From the IMG/VR virus record IMGVR_UViG_3300044645_002754, positions 6,803 through 70,802 of that record: 64,000 bases of DNA. The stretch is one strand, 5' to 3'. Position numbers and translations under genes: made by a program. This document shows, one piece after another, positions 51,580-58,068 of this stretch. Each line of letters begins with the position of its first letter. The first letter of the stretch is position 1. This DNA comes from a virus. The notes under the pieces were generated by a model, which was given only the letters and a program-made list of their open reading frames with translations, was not told the origin of the DNA and made no database searches.

Positions 51580-52155
51580 ATGCGCACCCCACCCCGTCTG
51601 ATCGGCCTCTACAGCCCGGCCCCCCGCTCCGGCAAAACCACCATCGCCCGCTACCTGATCGACGCGGGCTACGAAACCATCTCCTTCGCCCACCCCATCA
51701 AGCGCATGGCCACGGTCCTGCTGATGGAACTCGGCCACGACCTCGACACCATCAACCGCCTCCTCGAGTACGGCAAAGGCGACACCATCCCCGGCATCAA
51801 AACCAACCTCCGCCACATCCTCCAAACCCTCGGCACGGAGTGGGGCCGCGACTGCATCCACCCCGAGCTCTGGCTGATGTGCTGGGAGCACGCCGCCACC
51901 CGCCAACTCAACAACGGCTTCAACGTCGTCTGCGACGACATCCGCTACCCCAACGAAGCCGCCCTGATCCGCCGTCTCGGCGGCGAAATCTGGTGCGTCA
52001 CCCGCCCCCACACCGAGCGCGGCACCAGCCACTCCTCCGAGGGCTCCCTCGACAACTACCCCCTCTTCGACCGCCGCATCCTCAACGACGGCACCTTGCT
52101 CAACCTCTACGAGCGCATCCAACAAATCCTGACCCCCCAATCCATCGCCGTCTAA
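51580..52155 (+). CDS. Deoxynucleoside monophosphate kinase
   Basis: RSGKTT, SFAHPIK, RHILQTLGTEWGR, DDIRYPNE and HSSE motifs. Confidence 0.9.
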   Translation: MRTPPRLIGLYSPAPRSGKTTIARYLIDAGYETISFAHPIKRMATVLLMELGHDLDTINRLLEYGKGDTIPGIKTNLRHILQTLGTEWGRDCIHPELWLMCWEHAATRQLNNGFNVVCDDIRYPNEAALIRRLGGEIWCVTRPHTERGTSHSSEGSLDNYPLFDRRILNDGTLLNLYERIQQILTPQSIAV

Positions 52156-52157
52156 CC

Positions 52158-52409
52158 ATGCCCCCCATCCCCACCAAATCCGTAACCCTGGCCCCCGAGC
52201 CCGGCGACATCCGCACCTACCCCTGGCGCTTCCAACTCGGCGAGCTCGTCTACATCAAAGGCTGGCCCCTCGACGAAGTCCTCACCGTCATCGGCGGCGA
52301 ACTCTGGCTCGGCTTCCCCCACCTCCGCCTGTACCACCGGGACGGCACCACCTGGCGTGTCCCCCAGCTGCACTGTTCCTCCAAACCGATCAGCTTCCGC
52401 AAGCCCTGA
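52158..52409 (+). CDS. Hypothetical protein
   Basis: ATG 52158; codon bias. Confidence 0.6.
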   Translation: MPPIPTKSVTLAPEPGDIRTYPWRFQLGELVYIKGWPLDEVLTVIGGELWLGFPHLRLYHRDGTTWRVPQLHCSSKPISFRKP

Positions 52410-52412
52410 CGC

Positions 52413-53036
52413 ATGCCCGCCGAGTTCGTCCACTGCACCCCCGACGCCGAGCGCCTCATTGTCAAGATGGCCCGCGTCAGCAACCCCGACAACGCCGACA
52501 ACTGGGACACCGGACCCAAGCTGCTGCGCTACCTCATCGCGCACCGCCACTGGTCCCCCTTCGAGATGGCCTCGCTCTGCCTCCGCCTCGAAACCGAGCG
52601 CGACATCGCGGCCCAACTCCTGCGCCACCGCAGCTTCTCCTTCCAGGAGTACTCAACCCGCTACGCCCGCACCACCCTGGCCGAGTGCCCGCCCCAGCGT
52701 CTCCAAGACACCACCAACCGTCAAAACAGCCTGGACACCATCCCCTTCGCGATGAAGTCCTACTGGGACCTTCGTCTCGGCCGCGTCATCGGTGACGCCT
52801 TCCTCCTCTACGAAGACATGCTCACCGAGGGCGTCGCCAAAGAAACCGCCCGCCGCATCCTGCCGCTCTGCACCCCCACCACGCTGTACATGCACGGCAC
52901 GCTGCGCAGCTGGATCCACTACATCGACGTCCGTTGCGACCCCGGCACCCAACTCGAACACCGCGAGCTCGCCACAGAGTGCAAAGCAATTTTTACTACC
53001 CAATTCCCCACCATCGCTGAAGCGGCTTGGCCATAG
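52413..53036 (+). CDS. thyX: FAD-dependent thymidylate synthase
   Basis: HWSPFE and QLLRHRSFSFQEYSTRY signature. Confidence 0.96.
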   Translation: MPAEFVHCTPDAERLIVKMARVSNPDNADNWDTGPKLLRYLIAHRHWSPFEMASLCLRLETERDIAAQLLRHRSFSFQEYSTRYARTTLAECPPQRLQDTTNRQNSLDTIPFAMKSYWDLRLGRVIGDAFLLYEDMLTEGVAKETARRILPLCTPTTLYMHGTLRSWIHYIDVRCDPGTQLEHRELATECKAIFTTQFPTIAEAAWP

Positions 53037-53045
53037 CACCAAGCT

Positions 53046-53167
53046 CTGGGCCTCCTTTTTAGGTGTAAGTCCCTGGTTTTGCGGCACCCTGCATCGCCTT
53101 GCAGCGCGGCGCACGGCCCCGCACAGCGGTGCGCCGCAAAGCACAGCTCCCCGCACCGAGTCGGGGA
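53046..53167 (+). ncRNA. Pentamer-repeat RNA candidate, unit 1
   Basis: Leader with AGGTGTAAGTCCC; 14 xGC-NN pentamers at 53080-53149; hairpin TCCCCG-CACCGAGT-CGGGGA. Confidence 0.75.
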
Positions 53168-53196
53168 CCCCAACCCCTACGAGGAACTCACCATCA

Positions 53197-53865
53197 ATGG
53201 CTTTTCTCCGCTATTCAGTAGAGCTAACAGGCACAGCACCTTTGCTCTGCTCTAACAATTGCACAATCGATCAACTCGGCACTCCAGCTGACATCCTTGG
53301 CTGGTACCACAAGATCCCGCAGAAGAAGCGAGAGCTCCGCGTAGAGCGTTCAATGCGCAACTTTCATTGGCTTTTCAGCGGCTACTGGAAACACGAAGGT
53401 GCGGTCCAGCACCCTTCAGAGACAGATGGCTGCGATGTTTTCGAGAACTACGCTGATCCGATTCTTCCCGCTCCCAACTTGCAGCGCTGTTTGCGTGATG
53501 CTGCAACGGCGTGGAAGCTTGGTAAAGACGTCTCACGCTCCACAATCGTGGAGAACGACTCCCCAATTACATACAACGGCCCGCGAGAAGCCCGCGCCAT
53601 GCTCAAAGATGGGCGTTTCTACAGTTGCCGCCCTAATGGCAGAGGGAACATGGCTATCCGCGTCATGTTCCCTGAATGGAGCGTCCGCTTCCGCGTGCTG
53701 ATTAACGACGAAATCATGGGAGAACGGGATTTTGTCAAGATTCTTGATCGCGCAGGAGTAGCTGAAGGCTTGGGAGCCTGGCGCCCTGGCAGCCCTAAGG
53801 GCGGGCGTTTCGGCCGCTTTTCTGTTACTGATTTCACCCCGCTCTCATTTGAGGAGGCCGAGTGA
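53197..53865 (+). CDS. Stand-alone Cas7/RAMP-like protein
   Basis: VELTGTAPLL (first strand), ILPAPNLQRCLRDAA (RAMP helix), FPEWSVRFRV, Gly-rich loop AGVAEGLGAWRP...GRFGRFSV; GAGG RBS. Confidence 0.8.
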   Translation: MAFLRYSVELTGTAPLLCSNNCTIDQLGTPADILGWYHKIPQKKRELRVERSMRNFHWLFSGYWKHEGAVQHPSETDGCDVFENYADPILPAPNLQRCLRDAATAWKLGKDVSRSTIVENDSPITYNGPREARAMLKDGRFYSCRPNGRGNMAIRVMFPEWSVRFRVLINDEIMGERDFVKILDRAGVAEGLGAWRPGSPKGGRFGRFSVTDFTPLSFEEAE

Positions 53866-54371
53866 TGGAAACTCATAACGCCACAATTGACTACATCAAC
53901 CTGCGCAAAGGAGACCGCATCGAGGCCGACGTCGTTTGGAACTTCTACGCTTTGCTCAAACCCGAGGTTTATCAGAACTGGATCGACGAGCACGGCAACG
54001 AAGATCTAGCCAAAGCGGCACACATGCCCCAAACTCTCGTCCGAGTTCGCGACTGGATCGACGCACGCCGTAACGCACTGGACCTTCCCCCTCTCGTTAT
54101 CAACACTAAAAACACCGGGCTCAATGTTCTCAACGACGAAGAGGCCAGTCGTTACCTCTCCGACCGTGCTTTCGCCGGTCTGCGCCAGCACGCCAAGAAC
54201 ACCGGCAGACTGATCGCAGCGGTTGACGAGACACAGCTCAGCTCTGCCGCGTTGCGTGAACACGAAAGCCGATTGCGTACACATAGCTTCGTTCTTGCTT
54301 CCACCCATGGGGCCCAGACGATGCTTCGCAAGCTGCGCCGGGAGGGCAGAGAGGCTCCCAAGCTGAAGTAA
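53865..54371 (+). CDS. Partner protein of the RAMP-like gene
   Basis: TGATG coupling; same atypical codon usage; 168 aa. Confidence 0.75.
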   Translation: METHNATIDYINLRKGDRIEADVVWNFYALLKPEVYQNWIDEHGNEDLAKAAHMPQTLVRVRDWIDARRNALDLPPLVINTKNTGLNVLNDEEASRYLSDRAFAGLRQHAKNTGRLIAAVDETQLSSAALREHESRLRTHSFVLASTHGAQTMLRKLRREGREAPKLK

Positions 54372-54372
54372 T

Positions 54373-54484
54373 CCCTGGGCTTCCTTCCGAGGTGTAAGTC
54401 CCAGGGCCGCCGCATTGCTCCGCGTCGCATCGCACCGCGCCACTTCGCCCCGCAAAGCCTAGGCCCCCACACCGAGTTGAGGGC
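54373..54484 (+). ncRNA. Pentamer-repeat RNA candidate, unit 2
   Basis: CCCTGGG...AGGTGTAAGTCCCAGGG hairpin; 10 pentamers at 54411-54460; hairpin GCCCcCA-CACCGAGT-TGaGGGC. Confidence 0.75.
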
Positions 54485-54486
54485 AC

Positions 54487-54613
54487 CAACCCAACACAGA
54501 GTCCCGGCTCTCTGGTGGGTTGACCTACCACCGCCGCCGTGCATCGCATCGCTCACCTCCGCAACCCACCGCCGTGCTCCGCAGCGCAACGACCTCTGCA
54601 CCGAGTCAGAGGT
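54487..54613 (+). ncRNA. Pentamer-repeat RNA candidate, unit 3
   Basis: CAACCCA...TGGGTTG hairpin; 11-12 pentamers at 54530-54589; hairpin ACCTCTG-CACCGAGT-CAGAGGT. Confidence 0.75.
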
Positions 54614-54631
54614 ACTACACAAGAACAACAA

Positions 54632-54979
54632 ATGACTCAACCCTTACGCATCACAATCGAGTCAACCGCCGATGGATATCTGCGGTGGGAGATGGTTTGC
54701 GGTCCGGACGGAAAGCTCCATTTCGCAGGCACGTCGCCGCTGCTCGAAAGATGTTTTGAGGATTTGATCAGAGCCCAATGGACCCTCGCCGACCACCTCA
54801 CAGCTGACCCGGACCCCGAGCCCGACTGGCTGCCTGACCCACCCGCGCACCAGACGCCCATCCCCGAGGTCCATCCGACCGCTGGCGCTGCGCTCCCCGT
54901 GCAACAGGACATCCCAGCCGGCGGCCATCTAACTAAACCTTCCGAACTTTTTTACCCTCACCCATCCAGTTCTGGTTGA
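54632..54979 (+). CDS. Hypothetical protein
   Basis: ATG 54632; 5' half has atypical codons, 3' half is C-rich. Confidence 0.6.
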   Translation: MTQPLRITIESTADGYLRWEMVCGPDGKLHFAGTSPLLERCFEDLIRAQWTLADHLTADPDPEPDWLPDPPAHQTPIPEVHPTAGAALPVQQDIPAGGHLTKPSELFYPHPSSSG

Positions 54980-54989
54980 CAATGCCCGC

Positions 54990-55865
54990 ATGTCTCAATC
55001 AGAAGTACACAGCTATCTGACCGAGATCGGTCGCCACCCGGTCCTCTCGAAAGAGGCCCAGCTGCGGCATTGCCAGCGCATCTACGCCTGGGTCCACCAC
55101 GAGGCCGGCCGCGACGCAGCCCCCGACCGCATCCGCCGCTCCGGCTCCCGCTCCATGGAGGTGATGATCCGCACCAACCTCCGCCTGGTCGTCTCCATCG
55201 CCAAGCGCTACCAGGGTCGGGGCCTGGACCTCGCCGACCTCATCCAAGAAGGCAACCTGGGCCTGATCCGCGGCCTCGAGCTCTACGACCCGACCCGCGG
55301 CTACGCCGTCTCCACCTACGCCTACTGGTGGATCCGCCAAGCCATCACCCGGGCCCTCCACACCCACGCCCGCTCGATCCGCCTGCCAATCAACACCCAC
55401 GAACTGCTCGCCCGCATCCAGCGCTTCACCACCGAGCACACCAGCCTCTACGGCACCGCCCCCACCGTGCTCCAAATCGCCGAATACACCGACACCAGCC
55501 CTGAGCGCATCGCCCAAGTCCTCCAAACCCACACGCTGACCGCCTGCTCCTCCCTCGACGCCATCACCACCGAGGGCGGCACCACAATCATCGACCTCAT
55601 CCCCTCCCCCACCGAATCCAACGAAAGCGAACCGGACGAAGTCCTCGCCCTCGACGCCAACAAAGAAGCCGTCCAAGCAGCCCTCGCGGCCCTGAACCCC
55701 ACCGAATTCCGGATCATCCAAGCCTCCTTCTTCCAGGGCCGCACGCTCAAAGACATCGCCACCGAGTTCGGTTTCAGCCGCTGCCGCGCCGGCCAAATCC
55801 AAAAAACCGCCATCCGCAAACTCCGCATCACCCTGTCCCTCGCTGGCCACGCCCCCACCCCATGA
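54990..55865 (+). CDS. RNA polymerase sigma-70 family factor (RpoD-like, cyanobacterial type)
   Basis: YLTEIGRHPVL, NLRLVVSIAKRY, DLIQEGNLGL, STYAYWWIRQAI and a region 4 HTH. Confidence 0.95.
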   Translation: MSQSEVHSYLTEIGRHPVLSKEAQLRHCQRIYAWVHHEAGRDAAPDRIRRSGSRSMEVMIRTNLRLVVSIAKRYQGRGLDLADLIQEGNLGLIRGLELYDPTRGYAVSTYAYWWIRQAITRALHTHARSIRLPINTHELLARIQRFTTEHTSLYGTAPTVLQIAEYTDTSPERIAQVLQTHTLTACSSLDAITTEGGTTIIDLIPSPTESNESEPDEVLALDANKEAVQAALAALNPTEFRIIQASFFQGRTLKDIATEFGFSRCRAGQIQKTAIRKLRITLSLAGHAPTP

Positions 55866-56047
55866 GCCCCTCCCCCATCGTTCCCCTGCGCTGGTACGAA
55901 CTCTGGATGCTCCGCTTCCTCTCCCGCAGCCCCCGCATCCAACGCATCACGATTTGGCAGGCCAGCCTCGAGCCCGTCGCCCCGGCCCAACCCGACCTCG
56001 TGGAGCAGCTCGAATCCCTGTACGAGGGCCCCCCAGCCCAGCGGTAG
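55862..56047 (+). CDS. Small hypothetical protein
   Basis: ATGA-coupled. Confidence 0.6.
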   Translation: MSPSPIVPLRWYELWMLRFLSRSPRIQRITIWQASLEPVAPAQPDLVEQLESLYEGPPAQR

Positions 56048-56075
56048 AGTTGCGGTAACTCCCCTAGAACGTCAA

Positions 56076-56453
56076 GTGCCCGCCAAGAAGCCTGTCCCCA
56101 GAGCCGAATTCTTCGCCATCTGCGAGGACCATTACCGGCGGGACGGCTTCGTGAAGTGGGCTGCAGTCGCGGAACAACTCGGCGTGACCCGCCAAGCAGT
56201 AGCCGTGCGCCTTGAGAAGGCAGTACGGAATGGCCACCTGTCGGAAGATGACTACAAGCGCTGGGCTGGAACCAAGGCCAGAGAGGTGTTCTCCACCGAG
56301 CGCGAGGCCGAACGCCAGGAGAAGAAAAGACGCACAATCGCGACCTTATTAACCCCAGAGAACCACGACTGGGTAACCAACGAATGCGCACGACGCCACA
56401 TTCGGTCGGGCGATTTAATAAACGAACTTATTAACGGAGCCCGAATCAAATAG
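56076..56453 (+). CDS. HTH DNA-binding protein
   Basis: WAAVAEQLGVTRQAVAVRL. Confidence 0.7.
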   Translation: MPAKKPVPRAEFFAICEDHYRRDGFVKWAAVAEQLGVTRQAVAVRLEKAVRNGHLSEDDYKRWAGTKAREVFSTEREAERQEKKRRTIATLLTPENHDWVTNECARRHIRSGDLINELINGARIK

Positions 56454-56563
56454 GCGAATACCAACACATACATATTAAATTTTTACTGGCCCGGCGATGT
56501 GCAATCACTCGCCCCCATGTCTCACGGCAAGACTCAGTGAGACCCAGGGTTTTCCGCAGGGGG

Positions 56564-56820
56564 TTGACGGGTGCGCCGAGTTGCCGTAGGATGCTCTCAC
56601 GCGCGCACGCGCCGCGCGTTCTATCTCTGCCCGAGCATCCCCACGGGCTCGCTCTGCAGGGGTTGACGGATCGCCCGATTACCCCTTACCTTGGTTTCAA
56701 CGGATCGAAAGCACCCGCGGCCGTCGCGCCCGGTTCTCCGCTCTCGCTCCCAGGCCACCGGCTCGCCCGGCAGCCGCCAAACCCAGGGGGTTGACGGATC
56801 GCCCGATTAACCCTTACCAT
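56564..56820 (+). promoter_or_regulatory. Three tandem sigma-70-type promoters
   Basis: TTGACG-17-TAGGAT (56564), TTGACG-18-TACCTT (56663), TTGACG-18-TACCAT (56791); the last two are near-identical ~32-nt repeats. Confidence 0.75.
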
Positions 56821-57416
56821 TCAGAGGCAACCGATTCAGGAAGCGAACATGCACTGACCCATAGCGCAACCGAACAAGCGCGGCCGGCCTGGCGGATCCC
56901 AGGAGCGATAGCTGTGGCAGCGTCCGGACTGACTGGGCGCTAGCTGTGGGCAACGGCTTTCATGCCGGCCTCACGTACGACCTGCTCGGATCACACCGAG
57001 CACGACGACCGGCACCGACATACCCAAACGCCATAACGACGGGCGATAGCGGGTGAGGTGCTCAGTAGCCGATGGTTGGGGTGCTCATGGCGAACGCGGA
57101 ACCTCCTGCAGAGGGGTGCTGCCACCGGTGTTTGTTTAGGGAGCGCTCCTGCAGGGCTCCCGGCGTCCTCCTAACCGAGGGCGTGGTGCGCCGGCCCCTT
57201 AACGCCCGGCCTGCAGGCATGGTGGTTCTGATCCACCCGGTGTCCGTCCCGCTGACTGACAACGGTGGCCGCGTGCCCACCGTGGCAACGAGCACTCGGC
57301 TCTGCTCAGCACGCACAAAACATCTCCCCCAGAAGTTCCCCCTGGCGCACTGCGTCCGGGGGTCTTTTGGCTGAGGTGCTTTGCATCTCCATCCCTCTCA
57401 AGCTGTGAGTTCAGCC

Positions 57417-57650
57417 ATGCAATTCGACTCACGCCGGGCCACCTGCCCCGGCTACCTGGAGTTCATCTGGCGCACCGACACCCCCCTCCCCGAGGGCGCC
57501 AACCCACAAGCCATCGCCTACATCACCGACACCTACAGCACCCCGCGCAAGCCCTGGTTCTGCGGTGTCTACGGCATCCACGTCGTCGAAGGCGCCTCCA
57601 TCGCCTCCGTCAAGTCCGAGCTGTTCGCCCTGATCGAAGCCGGCCAATGA
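57417..57650 (+). CDS. Small early hypothetical protein
   Basis: Strong codon bias; first of a coupled gene run. Confidence 0.7.
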   Translation: MQFDSRRATCPGYLEFIWRTDTPLPEGANPQAIAYITDTYSTPRKPWFCGVYGIHVVEGASIASVKSELFALIEAGQ

Positions 57651-57877
57651 TCACCACCCACGCCACCGAGCACGACTTCTCCCGTTGGGAAGCTCACGCC
57701 AAAACCCTCGACGCCTACTCCCTCCGCTACGTCATCTCCGACTGCAAGCAAGCTGCAGCCGGCATGTTCGGGTGGAATCCTTCCCGCGAGGGCTACTACC
57801 TCGACCAAGCCGCCACCTACGGCATGGAACTGACGCGCCGCAACCGCCAGCTCCCGCCCGCCTTGCGCCACCGCTAA
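57647..57877 (+). CDS. Small early hypothetical protein
   Basis: ATGA-coupled. Confidence 0.7.
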   Translation: MITTHATEHDFSRWEAHAKTLDAYSLRYVISDCKQAAAGMFGWNPSREGYYLDQAATYGMELTRRNRQLPPALRHR

Positions 57878-57900
57878 CCGATTCAGGAACTGCACACGCC

Positions 57901-58068
57901 ATGACCGCAACGCTCCACATCCATCCGGAGGACTTCGACGCCCTCCTCAAATACTTCGCTCGCGCAAACCAGCTCCATTACGACGGCTACTGCACCGAGG
58001 ACGAGTTCAACACCGTGCAGGACTACATCGACCAGATCAAAGACCTCGCCCTGAACTACCGCCAATGA
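57901..58068 (+). CDS. Small early hypothetical protein
   Basis: AGGA RBS; codon bias. Confidence 0.65.
   Translation: MTATLHIHPEDFDALLKYFARANQLHYDGYCTEDEFNTVQDYIDQIKDLALNYRQ

What the first reader, a model, noticed from the sequence alone, without database searches (positions are those of the whole stretch)
54530..54775. Unit 3 NN code matches the adjacent gene when every third base is skipped, and mismatches look like self-escape
Seen: unit 3 NN = GC CG AT AT TC TC AA AC CG TC AG AA. Its gapped reverse complement is TTn CTn GAn CGn GTn TTn GAn GAn ATn ATn CGn GCn. The next gene at 54740-54775 reads CTg CTc GAa AGa TGt TTt GAg GAt TTg ATc AGa GCc. By hand, 18 of 24 specified bases and 7 of 12 dinucleotides match, and the skipped base is the codon wobble position. 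Two mismatches are Arg CGN vs AGA (AGA is rare in this phage) and one can be Leu TTR vs CTG. The only full mismatch falls on an irregular pentamer (CCC-AC). Inference: the guide targets the allele of this gene in related phages, while the resident copy has diverged to escape. Caveat: I saw a chance 15/24 in-frame match elsewhere (about 48648), so this needs a proper statistical test.
Basis: partly seen in the sequence, partly recalled or inferred. Interest (0 to 1): 0.88.

Follow-up and report, generated by a model that had tools for sequence, protein, structure and literature searches.

The report
Phage VIPR guide beside recoded target
A lake-water phage carries a recently described CRISPR-like VIPR system, and one of its guide RNAs spells a conserved stretch of the neighbouring gene as rival phages write it, while the phage's own copy is recoded with rare codons so that it probably escapes.

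Summary
Unit 3 (54530-54589) gives the stated NN series. Its gapped reverse complement matches 54740-54774 at 18 of 24 bases, in frame, with the skipped base at the wobble position. This is the best hit in the whole window. In 20,000 shuffles, P = 0.0006 for reaching 18 within 600 nt.

The locus is a VIPR system, described in three bioRxiv preprints of 2026. It has a Cas7-like Vipr gene, a vap gene and three vrRNAs built from CGC-NN pentamers instead of GGY-NN.

In 39 cassette-free homologues of the adjacent gene, the same site scores 20-23 of 24 in 37. That is above the published 80% target threshold. The resident copy scores 75%.

Two rare AGA arginine codons account for the resident's drop below 80%. 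The divergent 5' gene segment that travels with the cassette ends at the 3' edge of the target site.

The system class is already in print. This scan has also noted the layout of a guide beside a resistant allele on other DNA (e1-5745284, e1-5987686). Targets of vrRNA1 and vrRNA2 were not found.

The parts
53046..53167 (+). vrRNA1 gene (ends not mapped): 5' hairpin, repeat tract 53080-53149 of 12-14 xGC-NN pentamers, and a 3' tail hairpin at 53148-53167 with loop CACCGAGT
   Evidence: Period-5 scan and sequence and fold. No target was found.
53197..53865 (+). vipr: a 222-aa Cas7-like RAMP protein
   Evidence: phrog_4652, E 4.8e-20. AF2 model with pLDDT 90.3. Foldseek best hits are Csm3/Cmr4 chains, E 9e-6. 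26% identical to the SUSP1 Vipr gene product, E 6e-18. It carries a glycine-rich C-terminal loop.
53865..54371 (+). vap: a 168-aa accessory gene whose start overlaps the vipr stop
   Evidence: ORF list. No Pfam or PHROG family. Marginal similarity to SUSP1 vap1, E 0.035. Atlas structural neighbours include HTH/MarR-type regulators at TM 0.43-0.48, which is only a lead.
54372..54484 (+). vrRNA2 gene (ends not mapped): 5' hairpin shared with vrRNA1, tract 54411-54460 of 9-10 pentamers, tail hairpin 54463-54484 with loop CACCGAGT
   Evidence: No convincing target.
54487..54613 (+). vrRNA3 gene (ends not mapped): tract 54530-54589 of 11-12 pentamers, tail hairpin 54592-54613 with loop CACCGAGT. 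This is the guide in the finding.
54632..54979 (+). 115-aa gene of unknown function, conserved in related phages and lying directly upstream of the sigma-factor gene. It is the target gene family of vrRNA3.
   Evidence: ORF. 39 homologue loci. 38 protein clusters. No Pfam family.
54740..54774 (+). Resident near-cognate site for vrRNA3, codons 37-48 (LLERCFEDLIRA): 18/24 = 75% NN match, with skipped bases at codon third positions
   Evidence: Homologous sites elsewhere score 20-23/24 in 37 of 39 loci.
54776..54785 (.). Right-hand mosaic breakpoint. Upstream, identity to the closest relative (L119) is 56-69% with saturated wobble positions. Downstream it is 100%, 92% and 94% in successive 36-nt blocks.
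   Evidence: A contig from run X24 also begins to align at 54779.
52941..53036 (+). 3' end of thyX with lowered GC3 (0.69 then 0.50, against 0.81-1.00 upstream) and lowered identity to the thyX of L101. This is the probable left edge of the mosaic module.
   Evidence: In L101/L103 and L086/L087, thyX directly abuts the target-gene homologue with no cassette.
54990..55865 (+). Sigma-70 family gene 10 nt downstream of the target gene. It is the probable polar victim of silencing in rival phages (inferred).
   Evidence: Pfam Sigma70_r2/r3/r4. Same gene order in 20 of the 39 homologue loci.

Best explanation
The region 53046-54613 is a VIPR locus with a vipr RAMP gene, a vap gene and three vrRNAs. 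By analogy with the published SUSP1 system, Vipr protomers should coat each vrRNA, hide the constant CGC of each pentamer and present the NN pairs. The NN pairs would then read double-stranded DNA two bases at a time while skipping every third base. vrRNA3 is aimed at a conserved, wobble-aligned stretch (codons 37-48, LLER[C/V]FEDIIRA) of the small gene that precedes the sigma-factor gene in related, cassette-free lake phages. Binding there would silence that gene and probably the sigma gene behind it during co-infection. The carrier phage has its own copy of the target right next to the guide. That copy sits in a divergent 5' gene segment which forms one mosaic module with the cassette. Both of its arginine codons in the site are the rare AGA instead of CGN. 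This lowers the self-match from a possible 20/24 to 18/24, below the 80% level used in print to call targets. What is shown: the anatomy, the homology to SUSP1 Vipr, the match statistics, the allele comparison, the codon usage and the breakpoint. What is inferred: vrRNA expression, RNP formation, silencing, and that 75% is too low for binding.
For: System identity. The Vipr model has a Cas7 fold and is homologous to the gene at the SUSP1 VIPR locus. The SUSP1 locus has the same layout, with one array upstream and arrays downstream of vipr-vap. xGC-NN or GGC-NN arrays flank family members in 18 of 80 IMG/VR loci and in Gordonia phage Trine and Pseudomonas phage LESphi2. The published rule is a one-base skip, wobble-aligned, on dsDNA, with targets called at 80% or more and no self hits at 80% or more.

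Target. A pattern allowing only the guide or the resident base at each position found 14 IMG/VR contigs. All are homologues of this gene: 13 score 21/24 and one scores 23/24. The protein-based fetch gave 39 loci, scoring 23 (1 locus), 21 (16), 20 (20), 19 (1) and 17 (1). These comprise 21 distinct site sequences, of which 19 score 20 or more. Skips of 0, 2 or 3 give 0 of 39 loci at 20 or more. Across 300 shuffled guides, the mean number of loci at 20 or more was 0.007. In a 641-kb test set, vrRNA3 was the only clear outlier among 40 vrRNAs.

Absence of the cassette in relatives. No vipr, vap or array was found in any of the 39 loci or in five whole relatives G001-G005.

Self-avoidance. The resident differs from the family consensus at three read positions, which are C in 39/39, A in 38/39 and C in 38/39 homologues. 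AGA is 3 of 38 Arg codons in vipr plus vap and 0 of 46 in thyX plus sigma. In the 5' segment of the target gene, AGA fills both Arg codons inside the site and neither of the two outside it.

Linkage. The breakpoint lies at 54776-54785, directly after the site.

Co-occurrence. One contig in lake run X24 carries a target-type allele beside the carrier phage.
Against: No experiment here shows that vrRNA3 is made or that 75% escapes while 83-96% is bound. The 80% line is a bioinformatic convention, and the three preprints' main texts give no mismatch tolerance.

The whole first 48 codons are divergent, not just the site. At least 8 protein clusters share this allele class, so the Ile-to-Leu mismatch is probably ancestral to the class and not a specific escape change. 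I could not see DNA of that class: it is absent from viral contigs.

The 39 homologues are related to each other. They were found with peptide patterns, one of which (LERCFED) lies inside the site.

One cassette-free complete relative (L118 = G003) also scores low, 17/24, with AGA at the second Arg. Low-matching alleles therefore exist without a linked guide.

Near-cognate self sites beside the cassette are not general: 0 of 40 vrRNAs reach P of 0.05 or less in their own locus.

vrRNA1 and vrRNA2 have no identified target.
Confidence: 0.72

Rival explanations
1. By-product of ancestry. vrRNA3 does target the gene family in rivals. However, the resident's low match only reflects the fact that the cassette sits next to a distantly related allele class with different codon usage. 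On this view the AGA codons were not selected to avoid the guide.
For: The first 48 codons are 56-69% identical to the closest relative, with wobble identity near 40%. GC3 is 0.60 in this segment and 0.59-0.66 in vipr and vap, against 0.86 in thyX and sigma. The same N-terminal allele class occurs in at least 8 other protein clusters, most with Leu at the Ile position.
Against: Within that same segment, the two Arg codons outside the site are CGC and CGG, and the two inside are both AGA. With AGA at 3 of 40 elsewhere in the module, two out of two has a chance of about 0.006. The amino-acid sequence would allow 21/24, yet every codon choice that can lower the match does lower it (and my count). 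The module boundary falls directly after the site.
Confidence: 0.17
2. Self-regulation. vrRNA3 is meant to bind its own neighbour weakly and tune expression of the resident gene and the sigma factor. It would not be directed at rivals.
For: The guide lies 150 nt from the site. The site is the best match in the whole genome record. The tolerance of VIPR for mismatches is not known.
Against: Foreign alleles match much better than the resident (37 of 39 at 20-23/24). The resident uses rare codons that lower the match. Published surveys found no self hits at 80% or more and describe lower self than non-self scores as avoidance of autoimmunity.
Confidence: 0.07
3. Chance. The 18/24 match has no meaning.
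For: 18/24 is reached somewhere in the 64-kb window by 7.2% of shuffled guides, and three 17/24 hits exist elsewhere.
Against: P = 0.0006 for a hit this close to the unit. The same site in 37 of 39 homologues scores 20-23/24, only under the one-base skip. The match is in frame and wobble-aligned, as published for natural targets.
Confidence: 0.02

Closest known systems
Type II VIPR system of Escherichia phage SUSP1 and the Pseudomonas fulva prophage (bioRxiv 10.64898/2026.04.26.720920, Results and three Methods sections read; 10.64898/2026.04.26.720927, abstract and passages read)
   Same: A lone Cas7-like Vipr gene followed by a small vap gene. One vrRNA lies upstream and further vrRNAs downstream. 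vrRNAs consist of 9-16 pentamers with a constant triplet and a variable NN, followed by a structured 3' tail. A one-base-skip, wobble-aligned match to a coding sequence of a competing mobile element. No self hit at 80% or more. The SUSP1 locus itself was inspected here.
   Different: The constant triplet is CGC (YGC), not GGY. This fits the paper's mention of alternative consensus repeats such as YNNNG, but I could not see which type this clade belongs to because supplements are closed. Vipr is only 26% identical. The tail is a simple hairpin with a conserved 8-nt loop; no pseudoknot is shown. The host is unknown (lake-water metagenomes). The target is a gene of sister phages that the carrier also possesses, not a satellite or prophage regulator.
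Solo and VIPR-linked vrRNAs that target rivals' vrRNAs with lower self-match (bioRxiv 10.64898/2026.10.15.759431, sections 6, 8, 9, 17, 26 read)
   Same: The guide matches rivals better than the carrier's own homologous sequence. The authors read this as avoidance of autoimmunity. Guides are wobble-aligned on conserved codons.
   Different: In that work the self sequence is another vrRNA gene, while here it is a protein-coding gene next to the guide. That paper argues that the codon register prevents escape without amino-acid change. Here two six-fold-degenerate Arg codons give a synonymous route. The words allele and arginine do not occur in its main text.
Cas7 backbones of class 1 CRISPR-Cas effectors (Csm3/Cmr4)
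   Same: RRM-based RAMP fold with a glycine-rich loop. These are the best structural matches of the Vipr model. They also show periodic interruption of guide-target pairing.
   Different: No CRISPR array was found by Tandem Repeats Finder, and no cas1, cas2 or large-subunit gene turned up near the locus (ORF list of 52000-57000 and Pfam on 5 proteins only). Period is 5 with 2 read bases, against period 6 with 5 read bases (the CRISPR period is recalled knowledge). Guides are hard-wired genes, not acquired spacers.

Membership tests
VIPR (Vipr + vrRNA + vap) | Vipr protein: a minimal RAMP (single RRM core, G-loop, thumb) related to the characterised Vipr proteins | tested here: met
   AF2 pLDDT 90.3. 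Foldseek top hits are Csm3/Cmr4, E 9e-6 to 1e-4. BLASTP to the SUSP1 locus protein gives E 6e-18 at 26% identity. A conserved GLG.WRP...GRF loop is present.
VIPR (Vipr + vrRNA + vap) | vrRNA genes: 9-16 tandem pentamers with a constant triplet and hypervariable NN, followed by a conserved 3' tail | tested here: met
   Three tracts of 10-14 pentamers. NN differs between units while GC at positions 2-3 is kept. All three are followed by a hairpin with the same 8-nt loop on different stems. The constant triplet is CGC, not GGY, so this is a variant consensus.
VIPR (Vipr + vrRNA + vap) | Minimal locus: vipr plus one vap gene, flanked by vrRNAs, carried by a virus | tested here: met
   ORFs and arrays. 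The record is a 70.8-kb virus genome estimated 100% complete. The layout matches SUSP1.
VIPR (Vipr + vrRNA + vap) | Targets follow the one-base-skip rule, usually wobble-aligned in coding sequence, at 80% NN match or more | tested here: met
   Met for vrRNA3: 37 of 39 homologue loci at 83-96% with skip 1, and 0 of 39 with skips 0, 2 or 3. No target was found for vrRNA1 or vrRNA2.
VIPR (Vipr + vrRNA + vap) | No self-target at 80% or more in the carrier genome | tested here: met
   The best self match of vrRNA3 is 75%. There is no match with up to 3 mismatches in the whole 70.8-kb record.
VIPR (Vipr + vrRNA + vap) | vrRNAs are expressed and form an RNP with Vipr that binds dsDNA and represses transcription | not testable with these tools
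   No RNA run holds the stretch. This needs sRNA-seq, pull-down and reporter assays.
CRISPR-Cas | Repeat-spacer array and adaptation or effector cas genes beside the RAMP | tested here: not met
   Tandem Repeats Finder shows no repeat-spacer array in the window. Rfam gives no hit. Pfam was run on 5 proteins only (vipr, vap, the 54632 gene, thyX, sigma) and named no cas family; vipr, vap and the 54632 gene have no Pfam family at all. No dedicated CRISPR finder was run and the window's other ORFs were not scanned for cas genes.

The most novel reading that the evidence does not exclude
The cassette and the recoded 5' end of its own target gene form a linked weapon-and-immunity module. In co-infection the guide would silence the sigma-factor operon of sister phages. 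Only genomes that take up the cassette together with the resistant allele would survive, so any crossover must fall beyond the target site, which is where the breakpoint lies. The module would then spread through a phage population by recombination, like a poison-antidote element. The resident allele would also show that a codon-register guide can be evaded synonymously through six-fold-degenerate Arg codons, contrary to the view that escape needs an amino-acid change. Two earlier notes of this scan on other phages (e1-5745284, e1-5987686) and a weaker second case here (L011 against L014) hint that the layout recurs. However, 0 of 40 vrRNAs tested in their own loci reached significance.
Probability: 0.28. 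Interest if true: 0.72.

Novelty: new member of a known kind. Interest (0 to 1): 0.5.

Why it matters
VIPR was published only in 2026, and its natural targets are known for few clades. This locus extends the one-base-skip rule to a CGC-NN clade in uncultured lake phages. It names a concrete target: a conserved motif of the gene in front of a phage sigma factor.

It also gives a clean natural self versus non-self pair. The sites encode almost the same peptide (Leu for Ile at one codon) at 75% versus 83-96% guide match, and two synonymous AGA codons make the difference around the 80% line. That is a ready-made substrate set for measuring VIPR mismatch tolerance. It would also test whether six-fold-degenerate codons are an escape route from a guide that reads codon positions 1 and 2. 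The main texts I read do not discuss this (supplements not seen).

The coincidence of the recombination breakpoint with the target edge suggests how such cassettes stay compatible with their carriers.

Tried and rejected
Chance was rejected, and so were skip rules 0, 2 and 3.

Targets of vrRNA1 and vrRNA2:
- Full-length gapped scans of five whole relatives and the window stayed at shuffle level.
- A 17-base core of vrRNA2 found 6 IMG/VR contigs of 37-53% GC. All are in frame, but the number is what chance predicts and the extension adds nothing.
- An 18-base core of vrRNA1 found 0 contigs in viral contigs. It found 5 in genome contigs, extending to only 18-21 of 24, with hosts unrelated to one another. 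Both results are chance level.

Close relatives of the cassette:
- The single-protein scan of viral contigs found none.
- As a result, co-variation of guide and neighbouring allele among close relatives was not tested.

DNA of the resident's allele class: patterns IESTADGY and DGYLRWE recovered only the common allele class from viral contigs.

Generality of near-cognate self sites beside cassettes: 0 of 40 vrRNAs at P of 0.05 or less.

Family libraries:
- Rfam gave no hit.
- Pfam gave no family for vipr, vap or the target gene.
- PADLOC and NCBIfam were not run.

Atlas:
- vap has only viral hypothetical neighbours, plus HTH-type models below TM 0.5.
- The target gene has nothing above 0.80.

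Expression: no RNA holder is listed for the stretch.

Contigs of four lake runs were identical to the window over the cassette, so they gave no guide or target variants.

Supplements of the three preprints are closed. Type assignment, fig. S17 (alternative repeat logos) and Supplementary Fig. 3A (self versus non-self scores) could bear on novelty and were not seen.
Full report
**What is there.** The region 53046-54613 holds three non-coding units around two overlapping genes. Each unit has a tract of 10-14 pentamers. Positions 2-3 of each pentamer are almost always GC (mostly CGC or TGC), and the last two bases vary freely. Each tract is followed by a hairpin whose stems differ but whose 8-nt loop is the same. 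A period-5 scan of both strands finds these three tracts as the top scorers in the window. Rfam has no match and there are no tRNAs. Tandem Repeats Finder sees only a 15-nt echo of unit 2 and no CRISPR-like array.

**The observation.** Unit 3 at 54530-54589 gives exactly the NN series in the finding. Its gapped reverse complement matches 54740-54774 at 18 of 24 read bases, with 7 of 12 dinucleotides complete. The site starts 36 codons into the ORF 54632-54979, so every skipped base is a wobble position. It is the single best hit among 127,932 positions on both strands; three sites score 17 and two score 16. Shuffling the order of the dinucleotides, 7.2% of 3000 shuffles reach 18 somewhere in the window. 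Only 12 of 20,000 reach 18 within 600 nt of the unit, and 19 of 20,000 do so when single bases are shuffled.

**What the system is.** The 222-aa protein has no Pfam family. It belongs to phrog_4652, of unknown function.
- An alignment of 33 family members gave an AlphaFold model with mean pLDDT 90.3.
- The best matches of that model in the PDB are Cas7-type subunits Csm3 and Cmr4 (E 9e-6 and up, TM about 0.45).
- tblastn against GenBank phages finds 127 records, mostly Felixounavirus-like coliphages, plus Gordonia, Mycobacterium and Pseudomonas phages.
- Of 80 IMG/VR loci that encode family members, 18 carry xGC-NN tracts beside the gene. Gordonia phage Trine and Pseudomonas phage LESphi2 carry GGC-NN tracts. 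The detector only looks for GC at fixed phase, so lower-GC clades were not assessed.

[quoted passage not shown] I read its Results and three Methods sections. It describes VIPR:
- a Vipr RAMP protein and a vap gene;
- vrRNAs of 9-16 GGY/NN pentamers with a 3' tail;
- recognition of double-stranded DNA by the NN pairs with one target base skipped per unit, mostly at wobble positions of coding sequences;
- natural targets called at 80% NN match or more, and no self hits at that level.

The window's protein is 26% identical (E 6e-18) to the protein at the SUSP1 locus. That locus has the same layout of one array upstream and arrays downstream of two genes. The locus is therefore a VIPR system with a variant constant triplet. 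The paper mentions alternative consensus repeats, but the relevant figures and tables are in supplements that I could not open.

**The decisive test.**
- A pattern that allows only the guide base or the resident base at each read position found 14 IMG/VR contigs, where chance predicts far fewer than one. All are homologues of the adjacent gene. Thirteen score 21/24 and one scores 23/24.
- That search cannot return anything below 18, so I also fetched homologues by protein similarity. Two came from the single protein, both 20/24. Thirty-nine distinct loci came from an alignment of N-terminal domains.
- At the homologous site these 39 score 23 (1 locus), 21 (16), 20 (20), 19 (1) and 17 (1). So 37 of 39, and 19 of 21 distinct site sequences, are at 83% or more.
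- With skips of 0, 2 or 3 bases, none of the 39 loci reaches 20. Across 300 shuffled guides, the mean number of loci at 20 or more was 0.007, and no single shuffle gave more than 2.
- One of the two peptide patterns used for the fetch lies inside the site, which may under-sample homologues with a different peptide there.
- Read positions are 96% conserved across the 39 sites, and skipped positions 83%. This mirrors what the October 2026 preprint reports for SUSP1 targets.

**The relatives lack the cassette.**
- None of the 39 loci has a vipr or vap homologue or a pentamer tract within 3.5 kb.
- Five whole relatives of 60-72 kb have none anywhere, using 33 family members as queries. Four of them are rated complete.
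- In L101/L103 (and L086/L087), thyX runs straight into the target-gene homologue. The 1.6-kb cassette therefore sits exactly in that junction in the window.

**Why the resident copy scores low.** It differs from the family consensus at three read positions:
- 54749: C in 39 of 39 homologues;
- 54764: A in 38 of 39;
- 54770: C in 38 of 39.

Two of these turn Arg CGC into AGA, and the third belongs to an Ile-to-Leu change.

AGA is rare in this phage. It accounts for 0 of 46 Arg codons in thyX plus sigma and 3 of 38 in vipr plus vap. In the 5' segment of the target gene, the two Arg codons outside the site are CGC and CGG, while both inside are AGA. At the module's own AGA frequency, two out of two has a chance of about 0.006.

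By my count, the resident peptide could be written to match the guide at 21/24. Every codon choice that can lower the match is taken. With CGN at both arginines the site would score 20/24, above the 80% line; with AGA it scores 18/24, below it.

**Mosaic structure.**
- blastn against the homologue loci shows that the closest relatives (L119/L120, 92% identical on the left) lose similarity at 52406 and regain it inside the target gene.
- In 36-nt blocks, identity to L119 is 64, 56, 58 and 69% up to 54784, with wobble identity near 40%. It is then 100, 92 and 94%. The breakpoint therefore lies at 54776-54785, directly after the site.
- On the left, the last 96 nt of thyX drop in GC3 and in identity.
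- vipr, vap and the 5' gene segment share a lower GC3 of 0.59-0.66, against 0.86 in thyX and sigma.
- The cassette and the low-matching 5' gene segment thus form one module.
- A protein search shows that the segment belongs to an allele class found in at least 8 other clusters. Most have Leu at the Ile position and Val where the resident has Cys.
- The Leu mismatch is therefore probably inherited with the class. I could not obtain DNA for that class. This is the main open point for the claim of selected escape.

**Ecology.** The stretch is held by contigs of 24 lake-water runs. In four runs laid on it, the cassette is identical to the window. One short contig in run X24 carries a target-type allele and begins to align at 54779. 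Carrier and potential target therefore co-occur in at least one sample. No RNA run holds the stretch, which says nothing about expression.

**Mechanism, as inferred.** The cryo-EM preprint (abstract and passages read) gives the following picture:
- Vipr protomers polymerise on the vrRNA and sequester each constant triplet.
- They present the NN pairs, and the R-loop forms from the 3' tail towards the 5' end.

vrRNA3 is complementary to the coding strand of the target gene. The first preprint reports silencing from either strand. Binding at codons 37-48 would block transcription of the small gene. It would probably also block the sigma-70 family gene that follows it 10-14 nt downstream in the window and in 20 of the 39 loci. 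The function of the small gene itself is unknown.

**What is already known.** The class, the skip rule, wobble alignment and the use against competing elements are in print. Lower self than non-self scores as avoidance of autoimmunity are reported for vrRNA-targeting vrRNAs. In the main texts I found no report of a guide placed beside the carrier's own recoded copy of a protein-coding target. I also found no mention of six-fold-degenerate codons as a synonymous escape route. Searches for escape, allele, adjacent, neighbor, synonymous and arginine gave nothing relevant; supplements were not seen. The October preprint argues that escape requires amino-acid changes. The resident allele is a natural counter-example in principle.

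This scan's own earlier notes describe the same layout in two other phages. They are unchecked AI notes and I did not test them.

A weaker second case turned up here. A vrRNA of L011 matches the N-terminal codons of the neighbouring, divergently transcribed gene at 15/20 in its own genome and 17/20 in L014, in frame and wobble-aligned. Against generality, none of the 40 vrRNAs tested has a significant near-match within its own locus.

**Verdict.** Protection comes from a co-inherited divergent allele segment, in which the two AGA codons are the specific sign of avoidance. This is a new member of a known kind of system. It is of moderate interest as a natural test case for VIPR self versus non-self discrimination.

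Noticed in passing
L011:2762-2811 (guide), L011:2499-2527 and L014:2616-2644 (sites): A second possible case of a guide beside its own mismatched target. An L011 vrRNA matches codons 8-17 of the neighbouring, divergently transcribed 234-aa gene at 15/20 in L011 and 17/20 in the related phage L014, in frame with the skip at wobble. Shuffle controls reach 17, so it is weak on its own.
   Followed up: partly
L118:3609-3643 (= G003, a complete 70.7-kb relative without VIPR): The only other low-scoring allele of the target site: 17/24, with AGA at the second Arg and Leu-Leu for Ile-Ile. It could be an escape variant in a targeted lineage, or plain variation.
   Followed up: partly
window 54632-54775; proteins P0126, P0128, P0132, P0136, P0138, P0143, P0144, P0146: The resident's first 48 codons belong to a distinct allele class (ITIESTADGYLRWE...LHFAG) known from at least 8 protein clusters. 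Most have Val at the Cys position, which would match the guide's GT. No DNA for them was available.
   Followed up: partly
window 57259-57906: A mostly non-coding stretch downstream of the sigma-factor region is 86-94% identical to many relatives whose flanking genes are only about 70% identical. Such conservation suggests a functional RNA or regulatory region.
   Followed up: no
window 54410-54454, run X21 record 4: A 168-nt lake-water contig aligns to the vrRNA2 tract with 8 differences and continues on both sides as further CGC-NN pentamers. Other VIPR arrays of this repeat type therefore occur in the same water.
   Followed up: no
L160-L165: All six exact hits to the vrRNA2 core are in frame and encode G-[NK]-A-V-I-T-[DE]-[IM] in contigs of 37-53% GC. 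The number of hits fits chance, and a purine-first codon pattern favours in-frame hits.
   Followed up: partly
window 53061-53076 and 54390-54405: vrRNA1 and vrRNA2 share a 5' hairpin with the core AGGTGTAAGTCCC. vrRNA3 has a different 5' stem. The core is absent from all 137 loci fetched up to that point. Whether it is a promoter, a processing site or a 5' handle is open.
   Followed up: partly
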